DNA from: an uncultured Gammaproteobacteria bacterium
Lineage (GTDB): Bacteria > Patescibacteriota > Patescibacteriia > UBA9934
DNA: 64,000 nucleotides
Direction of reading: 5' to 3'
NCBI GenBank assembly: GCA_964344415.1
Contig: CAYFMS010000001.1
Coordinates: 317,315 to 381,314 of the forward strand
Positions 43,095-43,799 of this stretch are shown piece by piece; the stretch's first letter is position 1, and every line of letters begins with the position of its first letter. The position numbers and the translations under genes were made by a program. Under the pieces are notes generated by a model. It saw nothing but the letters and a program-made list of their open reading frames with translations, was not told the DNA's origin and made no database searches.

Positions 43095-43799
43095 TTAGCA
43101 GCGATTTTCATGACGCCTCGGTATGGAAATTGGAAAAAATACTTGCTTTGTTCTCACGCATTTTGCAAATCGCAAAATTTGCAATTCCATATAATAGTGA
43201 TAGCTACGGCAATTACTAAAATTTTTTAGGTAAAATGATTTATTCAGCTTGATGTTGATACGTGAAAGAAATAGGGGGATCTCATCGGTATTTAATTCTT
43301 GAACTGGTTTTTTCTTGAGATGAAAATATTTAATAAGCTCTGCGTCAACGATATCTGCTCGAAATAGTTCCATAAAATCATAGACAAGTGGCTCGGATGT
43401 TGATGTTCGAGGTTGGTGAAATAATCCGATAGAAGTATTCATGTGATGTTTTTGAAACAAGGCACTCACCTTGCCGGTTAGGTGATGATATCCGATGTCT
43501 AATAATCTATTTACCGGATCGTTCGTTTGAGGTTTTCTTCCGTAAAAAACAACTTTACCGCTGAGAATTGTGCGTAAGGACTTCCAATATTTATGGGCAA
43601 ATCGTGCTTCAAGGAGTAGGAGGTTTTCTATTGTGTGTACGTTTTTTGTGCTTTTGTGATCGAAATCAATGTCTTGGTCATGTGATTTTGCAAGTATCTG
43701 CTGTGCTTTCATTTTTGCATGCAAAATATTCTTCGCGGACTCTAGAGCGAAGGAAGAATGTGCATAATCTGACATACGGCGAATCCAAAGGGCATTCAT
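43095..43799 (-). pseudogene. cas1: N-terminally truncated cas1. Only the catalytic alpha-helical domain is present, about 234 of roughly 320 aa.
   Basis: NDPVNRLLDIGYHHL matches the Cas1 NPxNAxLnYGY region. IGLFHQPRTSTSEPLVYDFMELFRADIVD matches GfLH...alDlmEefRp.vvD, retaining the catalytic H and E. The N-terminal beta-sandwich is absent, and the ORF abuts the array terminator. Confidence 0.65.

What the first reader, a model, noticed from the sequence alone, without database searches (positions are those of the whole stretch)
43095..43799. Mini-Cas1 lacking the N-terminal beta-sandwich domain, sandwiched between array terminator and TnpB-like promoter
The ORF retains the Cas1 catalytic helical domain, including NDPVNRLLDIGYHHL, the LFH His and the DFMELFR Glu. 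It starts where the N-terminal domain should be, immediately after the array 2 terminator, and cas2 is absent. It is either a decaying adaptation module or an unusual truncated Cas1.
Basis: partly seen in the sequence, partly recalled or inferred. Interest (0 to 1): 0.6.

Follow-up and report, generated by a model that had tools for sequence, protein, structure and literature searches.

The report
Conserved half-size Cas1 without Cas2
The short Cas1 gene is not a broken remnant: it belongs to a conserved family of half-size CRISPR integrases, found in tiny Patescibacteria genomes, that lack the usual front domain and the partner Cas2 yet sit in CRISPR loci that still seem to gain new spacers.

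Summary
ORF 43095-43799(-) encodes 234 aa that match only the alpha-helical catalytic domain of Cas1. The metal-binding residues E64, H128, D141 and E144 are intact. An in-frame stop lies two codons upstream, and no N-terminal-domain (NTD) remnant exists anywhere in the window.

It is not decaying. At least 60 homologues at 38-56% identity are all about 225-260 aa, and nearly all begin with MNALW. In 23 of 28 related Patescibacteria loci the gene sits beside a homologue of the neighbouring 429-aa TnpB/Cas12f-like protein. That protein's RuvC-I aspartate is replaced throughout the main clade. The loci also carry arrays with 39-40-nt repeats, roughly 30-33-nt spacers and a conserved structured leader RNA. 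No cas2 or cas4 is linked.

A sister sample carries the same locus with a different leader-proximal spacer, which indicates recent acquisition.

My best reading is that this NTD-less, Cas2-independent Cas1 is the sole integrase of a minimal type V system. The closest known relative is the Cas2-less V-C/V-D mini-integrase, which differs in having ~25-bp repeats, ~18-bp spacers and large effectors. The effector already has a PADLOC profile (Cas12_x1, V-F). I found no paper describing the NTD-less Cas1.

The parts
44475..44503 (-). Predicted promoter of the array-2 transcript: TTGACA (44503-44498), a 17-nt spacer, then TAGCGT (44480-44475) preceded by TG.
   Evidence: Read from the sequence. TTGAC and TGnTAnnnT are conserved at the same place in most of the 15 aligned leaders. 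The consensus promoter scan did not flag it.
44250..44470 (-). Conserved structured leader RNA of about 220 nt, directly upstream of array 2. It is a candidate tracrRNA or omega-like scaffold, or a leader carrying integration signals.
   Evidence: It is 93% identical to the copy upstream of array 1. It aligns across 15 loci with invariant TGAGAAAA...TTTTCTCA and GCCCCGTAGCAGGGCC blocks. RNAalifold finds compensatory changes in 11 of 25 pairs. No Rfam family matches.
43893..44249 (-). CRISPR array 2: five full 40-nt repeats (GGTTCACACCCCTCCTTCGGGAGAGGGAGTGGTATGCTAC) and five spacers of 31-32 nt.
   Evidence: The start-to-start period is 71-72 nt.
43835..43892 (-). Truncated terminal repeat (43892-43870, the first 23 nt only), followed by a terminator hairpin (43863-43842) and a T run.
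   Evidence: The arrays whose ends were displayed in L002, L014, L024 and L031 likewise end in a repeat that matches only over its 5' part.
43095..43799 (-). mini-cas1: 234 aa comprising only the Cas1 alpha-helical catalytic domain. Catalytic residues are E64, H128, D141 and E144. There is a conserved C-terminal P..RHE.RC motif.
43060..43088 (-). Sigma-70-like promoter for the effector gene: TTGACA-17-TATTCT with TG.
   Evidence: 10 of 12 consensus matches. A GGAGG ribosome-binding site precedes the ATG at 43021.
41732..43021 (-). 429-aa TnpB/Cas12f-fold effector (PADLOC profile Cas12_x1, CAS-V-F). The RuvC-I Asp is replaced by Ala244, there is no zinc-ribbon TNB domain, and no conserved RuvC-III Asp.
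41690..41711 (-). Terminator hairpin after the effector gene. It is 84% identical to the array-2 terminator region.
   Evidence: (family D3).
41393..41648 (-). Second copy of the promoter (TTGACA at 41646-41641) and the structured leader RNA.
   Evidence: (D2, 93% identity over 297 nt).
41199..41392 (-). CRISPR array 1: two full repeats (41392-41353 and 41320-41281, each differing from the array-2 repeat at 3 positions), two spacers, a degenerate truncated repeat (from 41249) and a terminator (41221-41199).

Best explanation
The ORF is a functional, naturally half-size Cas1. It consists of the catalytic alpha-helical domain alone and serves as the only adaptation protein of a minimal two-gene type V CRISPR-Cas system of Patescibacteria.

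Shown: (1) It belongs to a conserved family that never has the N-terminal domain. (2) The Cas1 metal-binding residues are invariant. (3) It is syntenic with one family of ~430-aa TnpB/Cas12f-fold effectors. (4) It is syntenic with arrays of constant unit length (39-40-nt repeat plus a spacer of roughly 30-33 nt). (5) No cas2, cas4 or separate NTD gene is linked. (6) The leader-proximal spacer of the adjacent array differs between two samples of the same population.

Inferred: The mini-Cas1 integrates ~32-bp prespacers at the leader-repeat junction without Cas2. It probably acts as a homo-oligomer (two dimers, as proposed for V-C Cas1 and seen for casposase). Dimerisation and spacer-length measurement would then rest on elements other than the missing NTD. 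Candidates are the conserved N-terminal helix (MNALW...Y12) and the C-terminal P..RHE.RC tail.

Also inferred: The crRNAs, perhaps together with the conserved leader RNA, guide an effector that has lost the RuvC-I aspartate. Interference would then work by binding rather than cutting, as in Cas12c and Cas12m, or through a recruited nuclease.
For: Domain and fold:
- Pfam and TIGRFAM matches start at model position 85-86.
- A profile of the family aligns to residues 103-335 of the 336-aa Synechocystis Cas1, PDB 7cr6.
- The AF2 model has pLDDT 94. Its best Foldseek hits are Cas1 and casposase, with TM 0.82-0.86 normalised on the query and 0.61-0.65 on the target.

Conservation:
- 62 homologues at 38-56% identity are nearly all 225-260 aa.
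- MNALW is nearly invariant; E64, H128, D141 and E144 are invariant.
- In 1.84 billion representative proteins, 30 clusters score E<=1e-30 and all are <=263 aa.
- 68 of 69 family members of >=200 aa have less than 40 aa ahead of the profile start. Canonical Cas1 proteins have about 83 aa.

Synteny:
- 28 genome loci were recovered, and 26 are titled as Patescibacteria lineages.
- 23 have the effector homologue adjacent.
- Nearly all have an array with a period of about 69-73 nt.

No partner gene:
- Neighbouring genes are mostly housekeeping or unrelated (ribosomal proteins, TsaD, a tRNA synthetase, UvrC, proteases and similar).
- The NTD profile finds nothing in the window or in L001-L028.

Activity:
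- L050, from a sister sample, has an identical cas1 and spacers S2-S5 but a different spacer in the S1 position.
- The terminal repeats are truncated or degenerate, and the array-1 repeats differ from those of array 2.
Against: - No biochemical data exist for this family.
- In canonical Cas1 the NTD contributes to dimerisation and Cas2 contact, and in E. coli it carries the Tyr22 wedge that measures the prespacer (my own knowledge of the Cas1-Cas2 structures). How a ~32-bp spacer is measured without the NTD and Cas2 is therefore unexplained.
- The only characterised Cas2-less Cas1 (V-C) prefers ~18-bp spacers and ~25-bp repeats (PMC8464041, PMC8390960), unlike this system.
- Only 64 kb of a 768-kb contig was available, so a cas2 elsewhere in the genome is not excluded.
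- The spacer polymorphism rests on a single contig end. It could also reflect spacer loss or recombination between the two arrays.
- No protospacer was found for the six spacers tested.
Confidence: 0.7

Rival explanations
1. The mini-Cas1 is a functional integrase but not self-sufficient. It needs a partner that replaces the NTD and Cas2 scaffold. Candidates are a trans-encoded Cas2 or Cas2-like protein, a host factor, or the adjacent nuclease-dead Cas12-like protein acting as bridge and ruler.
For: - Spacers of 31-32 nt and repeats of 40 nt are the size typical of Cas1-Cas2 systems, not of the Cas2-less V-C system (PMC8464041).
- cas1 and the effector gene are adjacent, and sometimes overlapping, in 23 loci.
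- A 170-aa protein with a PaaX_M/Cas2-like domain lies upstream of the effector in the two divergent loci L021 and L026.
- Nuclease-like genes of about 480 aa flank four loci: a TM0106 RecB-like gene in the window and DUF2779 genes in L004, L005 and L010.
Against: - No candidate partner other than the effector is conserved across loci.
- The window's RecB-like protein has no homologue in the other loci.
- PaaX-like proteins appear in only 2 of 28 loci.
- V-C Cas1 and casposases show that Cas1-type integrases can act without Cas2 (PMC6977970, PMC8464041).
Confidence: 0.2
2. The gene is a decaying remnant of a full-length cas1: a 5' truncation caused by array expansion or a deletion, and no longer functional.
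For: - The ORF starts about 40 nt after the array terminator, and cas2 is missing.
- No Shine-Dalgarno sequence or consensus promoter precedes it.
Against: - The same short architecture and the same MNALW start occur in more than 60 homologues down to 38% identity, with invariant catalytic residues.
- No NTD remnant exists in any frame.
- The AF2 model is compact and confident without the NTD.
- The array shows leader-end polymorphism.
Confidence: 0.03
3. The mini-Cas1 has been recruited for a role other than spacer acquisition, for example a DNA repair or nuclease function or array maintenance. The arrays would then serve a regulatory, TldR-like function of the dead effector rather than immunity.
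For: - The effector lacks the RuvC-I Asp, as do regulatory dead TnpB and Cas12 derivatives (PMC10691335, PMC10705468).
- The arrays are short, with 2-8 spacers.
- No viral protospacers were found.
Against: - Spacers differ completely between loci and between samples.
- No self-target for any of the seven spacers occurs in the 64-kb window.
- The Cas1 integrase active site is strictly conserved.
- Known regulatory dead TnpBs have lost CRISPR arrays and Cas1 (PMC10691335).
Confidence: 0.07

Closest known systems
Type V-C / V-D Cas1 'mini-integrase' (Wright et al. 2019, Mol Cell 73:727; read only through citing papers PMC6977970, PMC8464041, PMC8390960)
   Same: The locus has Cas1 as the only adaptation gene and a single type V effector, with no cas2. 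V-D systems occur in candidate-phyla-radiation bacteria (PMC6509639). V-C Cas1 integrates without Cas2, and a tetramer was proposed.
   Different: V-C Cas1 prefers ~18-bp spacers and ~25-bp repeats, and CasY (V-D) effectors are about 1150-1300 aa (PMC8464041, PMC6509639). Here the repeats are 40 nt, the spacers 31-32 nt and the effector 429 aa. The citing papers describe the mini-integrase as Cas1 without Cas2, not as a Cas1 lacking its NTD. I could not read the original paper to check Cas1 length.
Canonical Cas1 of Cas1-Cas2 integrases (e.g. Synechocystis 7cr6, E. coli, E. faecalis)
   Same: It shares the alpha-helical catalytic domain fold, with TM 0.82-0.86 over the whole mini-Cas1. It has the same Glu/His/Asp-Glu metal site, and repeats and spacers are of similar size.
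   Different: The whole ~85-100-aa N-terminal beta-sandwich domain is absent. No Cas2 is linked. The family has its own C-terminal P..RHE.RC motif and MNALW start.
Casposase (Cas1 homologue of casposons, PDB 6opm)
   Same: It is the second-best structural match (E 2e-9, TM 0.81). It works without Cas2, as a tetramer (PMC6977970).
   Different: In the profile alignment the match starts at residue 119 of the 431-aa casposase chain, so the casposase has about 110 further N-terminal residues. Casposases are transposases of casposons, mobile elements with terminal inverted repeats (PMC6977970, PMC8464041). Here the gene sits in a CRISPR locus among unrelated, mostly housekeeping, genes.
Type V-F (Cas12f/Cas14) effectors and TnpB
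   Same: The effector model matches ISDra2 TnpB and AsCas12f (Foldseek E 1e-11) and is of similar size. PADLOC profile PDLC01225 'Cas12_x1; CAS-V-F effector' covers it end to end (E 1e-103).
   Different: The main clade has A/S/V/G/P in place of the RuvC-I Asp. It has no CxxC zinc-ribbon TNB domain and no conserved RuvC-III Asp. No Pfam TnpB nuclease-domain hit and no sequence-level PDB hit was found. NCBI names a homologue 'hypothetical protein'.
Nuclease-inactive type V effectors (Cas12c, Cas12m, V-O/V-P, Cas12k) and dead TnpB regulators (TldR, dCas12f-sigmaE)
   Same: Loss of RuvC catalytic residues is combined with retention of guide RNAs. Interference by binding has been shown for V-C and V-M and is predicted for V-O and V-P (PMC12669027).
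   Different: This family is much smaller than Cas12c and keeps an adaptation gene, unlike Cas12k, TldR and most V-M loci (PMC10691335). I could not determine whether it corresponds to V-O, V-P or one of V-U6-45, because the supplementary data are not held.

Membership tests
Cas1 (PF01867 / TIGR00287) | C-terminal alpha-helical catalytic domain with a conserved Glu, His and Asp/Glu metal-binding site | tested here: met
   Pfam E 3e-25 and TIGR00287 111.5 bits against a cutoff of 71.7. E64, H128, D141 and E144 are invariant in 32 sequences. The AF2 model matches Cas1 structures at TM 0.82-0.86.
Cas1 (PF01867 / TIGR00287) | N-terminal beta-sandwich domain of about 85-100 aa | tested here: not met
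   Matches begin at model position 85-86 and at residue 103 of 7cr6. The NTD profile gives no hit in the window or in 28 related loci. An in-frame stop lies two codons upstream.
Cas1 (PF01867 / TIGR00287) | Genomic association with a CRISPR array | tested here: met
   Arrays lie next to cas1 in the window and in nearly all of the 28 loci.
Cas1 (PF01867 / TIGR00287) | Partnership with Cas2 (adjacent cas2 gene) | tested here: not met
   No Cas2 is found among the 52 neighbouring ORFs of the related loci, except a PaaX_M/Cas2-like domain protein in L021 and L026. The rest of the 768-kb genome could not be read.
Cas1 (PF01867 / TIGR00287) | Spacer integrase activity | not testable with these tools
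   Only indirect evidence exists: the leader-proximal spacer differs between the window and L050.
V-C / V-D Cas2-less mini-integrase system | Cas1 is the only adaptation gene; cas2 and cas4 are absent | tested here: met
V-C / V-D Cas2-less mini-integrase system | Unusually short repeats (~25 bp) and spacers (17-19 bp) | tested here: not met
   The repeat is 40 nt and the spacers 31-32 nt in the window. The period is about 69-73 nt in related loci. The V-C reference values come from PMC8464041.
V-C / V-D Cas2-less mini-integrase system | Large Cas12c or Cas12d effector (about 1150-1300 aa for CasY) | tested here: not met
   The effector is 429 aa here and 352-514 aa in related loci. CasY lengths are from PMC6509639.
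V-C / V-D Cas2-less mini-integrase system | Cas1 tetramer as the active integrase | not testable with these tools
   Only monomer structure prediction was available.
Type V-F (Cas12f) effector, for the partner gene | TnpB-like WED-REC-RuvC fold, about 400-700 aa, adjacent to a CRISPR array | tested here: met
   Foldseek top hits are TnpB 8h1j and AsCas12f 8j12 at E 1e-11. PADLOC Cas12_x1 (CAS-V-F) scores E 1e-103.
Type V-F (Cas12f) effector, for the partner gene | Intact RuvC D-E-D catalytic triad | tested here: not met
   The RuvC-I position is A/S/V/G/P in all main-clade sequences, while the sister clade (L018, L019, L021, L026) keeps D in xDLG or xDNG. There is no conserved RuvC-III Asp. 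A rearranged active site cannot be excluded.
Type V-F (Cas12f) effector, for the partner gene | Zinc-ribbon TNB domain between RuvC-II and RuvC-III | tested here: not met
   The region has no CxxC pairs and no PF07282 hit. The effectors beside the more distant short Cas1 proteins do hit PF07282.
Type V-F (Cas12f) effector, for the partner gene | tracrRNA | tested here: inconclusive
   A conserved, covarying ~220-nt RNA lies between the promoter and the first repeat. Pairing with the repeat was not demonstrated.
Casposase | Encoded in a casposon, a mobile element with terminal inverted repeats | tested here: inconclusive
   The called genes around the window locus are the effector, a RecB-like nuclease, a prolyl isomerase and genes without Pfam hits. 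Neighbours in related loci are mostly housekeeping genes. The family is absent from viral contigs. Terminal inverted repeats were not searched for, and the family-scan listing showed only the 25 most frequent of 81 families.

The most novel reading that the evidence does not exclude
This may be the smallest autonomous adaptive CRISPR-Cas system, with about 2 kb of coding sequence (234 aa plus 429 aa). In it a Cas1 consisting of the catalytic domain alone would build a spacer integrase with a new architecture and a new ~32-bp ruler. It might use the nuclease-dead Cas12-like protein or the conserved leader RNA as scaffold in place of Cas2 and the NTD. Immunity would be exerted by RNA-guided binding rather than cleavage.
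Probability: 0.3. Interest if true: 0.85.

Novelty: new variant of a known kind. Interest (0 to 1): 0.62.

Why it matters
Current models of spacer acquisition rest on three elements: the Cas1 NTD (dimerisation, Cas2 docking and, in E. coli, the Tyr wedge), the Cas2 dimer as a ruler, and the catalytic domain. A conserved lineage that keeps only the catalytic domain yet maintains normal-sized repeats and spacers would show that the first two elements are dispensable or replaceable. It would provide a ~26-kDa minimal integrase for mechanistic and recording applications. It also bears on how Cas1 evolved from casposases.

The two-gene locus, with a 429-aa apparently nuclease-dead effector, is also a natural candidate for a very compact programmable DNA binder. 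If it is ordinary after all (a trans-acting Cas2, or an already catalogued V-U variant), the value is mainly in correct annotation.

Tried and rejected
- **N-terminal remnants.** I translated the three frames upstream of the ATG and ran tblastn with 35 canonical NTDs against the window. The best E was 0.015, hits were scattered, and none lay near the locus. An NTD profile search gave no hit.
- **Cas2, Cas4 or a third conserved gene.** Pfam, NCBIfam and PADLOC scans of 52 neighbours and of all window ORFs found nothing conserved. The PADLOC alignment listing shows only the top 25 families, so a weak Cas2 hit elsewhere in the window could have been hidden.
- **Window RecB-like nuclease in other loci.** No homologue was found.
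- **Protospacers.** Six of the seven spacers were tested as 26-nt exact patterns against IMG/VR, with no hits. No self-target appeared in the window or in the held loci.
- **Family on viral contigs.** None found.
- **Rfam match for the leader RNA.** Only sub-threshold noise.
- **Sequence link from the effector to solved structures.** None found.
- **Profile-profile link to the effectors beside the more distant short Cas1 proteins.** Not significant, so the RuvC assignment rests on the sister-clade alignment and the predicted fold.
- **Literature.** The Wright 2019 paper, the Makarova 2020 review and the SI of Altae-Tran 2023 are not held. Ten full-text searches found no description of an NTD-less Cas1.
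- **Idea that the more distant short Cas1 proteins are V-C/V-D Cas1.** Rejected. Their neighbours are 450-650-aa Cas12f-like proteins, with 36-37-nt repeats and ~30-nt spacers.

Full report
**Observation**

ORF 43095-43799 on the minus strand encodes 234 aa.
- Pfam Cas_Cas1 matches residues 6-168 to profile positions 85-259 of 283 (E 3e-25).
- TIGR00287 matches residues 5-221 to positions 86-325 of 327 (E 4e-32, above the curated cutoff).
- Every Cas1 model in NCBIfam and PADLOC leaves its first ~80-90 positions unmatched.
- Upstream lie the truncated last repeat of array 2 and a terminator hairpin (43863-43842, then a T run). An in-frame TAA sits two codons before the ATG.
- The 73-nt spacer to the next gene holds TTGACA-17-TATTCT with a TG motif.

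**Not a local truncation**

- A word-indexed search of 5.8 billion proteins returned 62 homologues at 38-56% identity. Nearly all are 225-260 aa.
- In an alignment of 32 of them the N-terminus MNALW is nearly invariant. E64, H128, D141 and E144 are invariant; they are the counterparts of the Cas1 Glu/His/Asp metal site, an assignment made from the Cas1 literature and the alignment to 7cr6. A family-specific C-terminal P..RHE.RC motif is conserved.
- A profile search of 1.84 billion representatives found 30 clusters at E<=1e-30, all <=263 aa.
- I measured the residues that precede the profile start. Of the 69 family members of >=200 aa (>=130 bits), 68 have fewer than 40. The next tier (85-130 bits) is also short, with 27 of 31 below 40. 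Canonical Cas1 proteins (median 331 aa, ~83-aa overhang) appear only below 85 bits.

**Structure**

- The family profile aligns to residues 103-335 of the 336-aa Synechocystis Cas1, PDB 7cr6.
- The AF2 model is compact and confident without an NTD (pLDDT 94.1, pTM 0.90).
- Its best Foldseek hits are Cas1 (7cr6; TM 0.82-0.86 on the query, 0.61-0.65 on the target), casposase 6opm and other Cas1 proteins.

The protein is therefore the complete catalytic domain and nothing else.

**No hidden N-terminal domain and no Cas2**

- A profile of 35 canonical NTDs recognises 58 of 59 long Cas1 proteins. It finds nothing in six-frame translations of the window (E<=10) or of 28 related loci (E<=1).
- Pfam scans of 52 ORFs flanking the related loci gave mostly housekeeping or unrelated genes and no conserved third gene.
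- The exceptions are a 170-aa PaaX_M/Cas2-like-domain protein upstream of two divergent loci (L021, L026) and DUF2779 proteins of ~490 aa in L004, L005 and L010.
- The window has an unrelated TM0106 RecB-like nuclease at 44562-45986. It has no homologue in the other loci.

**The system around it**

*Distribution.* A genome-collection scan gave 28 loci, 26 of them titled as Patescibacteria lineages. In 23 of them a homologue of the window's 429-aa neighbour is adjacent. The usual order is effector, then cas1, then about 220 nt, then the array. The window has the order array 2, cas1, effector, array 1.

*Effector identity.*
- It has no sequence-level PDB relative.
- Its AF2 model (pLDDT 87) matches TnpB and Cas12f structures at E 1e-11.
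- PADLOC profile PDLC01225 (Cas12_x1, CAS-V-F effector) covers it end to end at E 1e-103. The effector family is therefore already represented in CRISPR-typing profile sets.
- NCBI calls a homologue a hypothetical protein.

*Effector active site.*
- All main-clade sequences have A/S/V/G/P where a sister clade (L018, L019, L021, L026) keeps the RuvC-I Asp in xDLG or xDNG.
- The RuvC-II acidic residue is only mostly kept.
- No RuvC-III Asp is conserved, and the zinc-ribbon TNB domain is missing.
- I infer nuclease inactivation. A rearranged active site of the kind described in PMC10691335 is not excluded.

*Arrays and leader.*
- The arrays have 39-40-nt hairpin repeats, a period of about 69-73 nt, and a terminal repeat truncated after its 5' half and followed by a terminator.
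- Each array is preceded by a conserved promoter and a ~220-nt RNA. It has invariant blocks, and 11 of 25 predicted pairs show compensatory changes. No Rfam family matches.
- In the window and in the closest relative L031 the whole leader-array cassette is duplicated, at 93% and 98% identity respectively.

**Evidence that adaptation is active**

Contig L050, from a sister sample of the same project, carries an identical cas1. It also carries spacers S2-S5 of array 2 in the same order. The spacer next to S2 on the leader side differs from the window's S1.

A variable leader-proximal spacer over shared older spacers is the signature of polarised acquisition. This is one contig end, so the support is moderate rather than decisive. 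Spacers are unrelated between loci, while unit length is constant.

**Mechanism**

*Shown:* a conserved catalytic-domain-only Cas1 with an intact active site; exclusive synteny with one effector family and with arrays; no linked cas2, cas4 or NTD gene; and leader-end polymorphism.

*Inferred:* mini-Cas1 is the spacer integrase and works without Cas2, probably as a homo-oligomer. This is by analogy with V-C Cas1 and casposase (PMC6977970, PMC8464041). The ruler that gives ~32-bp spacers must differ both from Cas1-Cas2 and from the V-C enzyme (~18-bp spacers, ~25-bp repeats). The conserved N-terminal helix and C-terminal tail are candidates, as is the effector acting as scaffold (the rival explanation). 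Interference is probably by binding without cleavage, as in V-C and V-M (PMC12669027).

**Wider pattern**

The more distant short Cas1 proteins (about 240-280 aa, C-terminal W-x-H motif) also lack the NTD. In loci L032-L034 they sit next to 450-650-aa proteins with a Cas12f1-like TNB domain. Those arrays have 36-37-nt repeats and ~30-nt spacers. NTD-less solo Cas1 is therefore the adaptation module of at least two groups of miniature type V systems. It is not the V-C/V-D module.

**Novelty**

Ten full-text searches and the classification papers I could read mention Cas2-less V-C/V-D systems, about 50 independent TnpB-to-Cas12 events (V-U6-45) and inactivated subtypes V-O and V-P (PMC12669027, PMC10691335). 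None describes a Cas1 lacking the NTD. The original V-C paper and the relevant supplements are not held. The locus may therefore already be catalogued as a V-F or V-U variant. I rate it a new variant of a known kind.

**What led nowhere**

- No protospacers were found in IMG/VR for the six spacers tested.
- No self-targets were found.
- The family is absent from viral contigs.
- Profile-profile comparison with the effectors beside the more distant short Cas1 proteins was not significant.

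Noticed in passing
window 41732-43021 (-); related loci L001-L026: The 429-aa TnpB/Cas12f-fold partner lacks the RuvC-I Asp (Ala244), the TNB zinc ribbon and a conserved RuvC-III Asp. A sister clade (L018, L019, L021, L026) still has xDLG or xDNG. The nuclease therefore appears to have been lost within the family while cas1 and the arrays were kept.
   Followed up: partly
window 44250-44503 (-) and 41393-41648 (-); alignment A5 of 15 loci: Each array is preceded by a conserved promoter (TTGACA-17-TAnnnT with TG) and a ~220-nt RNA. The RNA has invariant blocks (TGAGAAAA/TTTTCTCA stem, GCCCCGTAGCAGGGCC) and compensatory base changes, and no Rfam family matches. It may be a tracrRNA or omega-RNA-like scaffold co-transcribed with the array.
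   Followed up: partly
window 43870-43892 and about 41227-41249 (-); also L002, L014, L024, L031: Each of these arrays ends in a repeat that matches only over its 5' part. In the window and L031 this is followed directly by a terminator hairpin. In L031 the 67-nt trailer is 100% identical between the two arrays.
   Followed up: partly
L050:1-40 versus window 44179-44209: A sister-sample contig shares spacers S2-S5 but has a different spacer in the leader-proximal (S1) position, and the contig ends there. This suggests population heterogeneity at the growing end of the array.
   Followed up: partly
window 44562-45986 (+); L004:2104-3594, L010:3407-4870, L005:9292-10785: A TM0106-family RecB-like nuclease (474 aa, RNase_H_2 domain) lies divergently next to the array-2 promoter. 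Three other loci have unrelated DUF2779 proteins of ~490 aa in the flanking position. These could be accessory nucleases or a coincidence.
   Followed up: partly
L021:5641-6162 and L026:2562-3068: Proteins of 168-173 aa with a PaaX_M/Cas2-like domain lie 230-460 nt upstream of the effector in two loci of the RuvC-I-retaining sister clade.
   Followed up: no
L032-L034 (metagenome contigs), L027, L028: A second, more distant group of NTD-less Cas1 proteins (240-280 aa, C-terminal W-x-H motif) sits beside 450-650-aa proteins. In L032-L034 these carry a Cas12f1-like TNB domain, and the arrays have 36-37-nt repeats and ~30-nt spacers.
   Followed up: partly
window 40795-41697 (-) and 43979-44221 (-): The 300-aa and 80-aa ORFs listed by the ORF finder run through array 1 with its leader and through array 2. 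They are artefacts of the repeats, not genes.
   Followed up: yes
window, ORFs not localised: PADLOC hits to type II DNA methyltransferase (E 6.5e-98) and type II restriction enzyme (E 1e-43) models indicate a restriction-modification system elsewhere in the 64-kb window.
   Followed up: no
window 41682-41706 versus 43834-43858: The terminator after the effector gene is 84% identical to the terminator after array 2. Together with the unusual cas1-then-effector order, this hints at a rearrangement between duplicated array cassettes.
   Followed up: no
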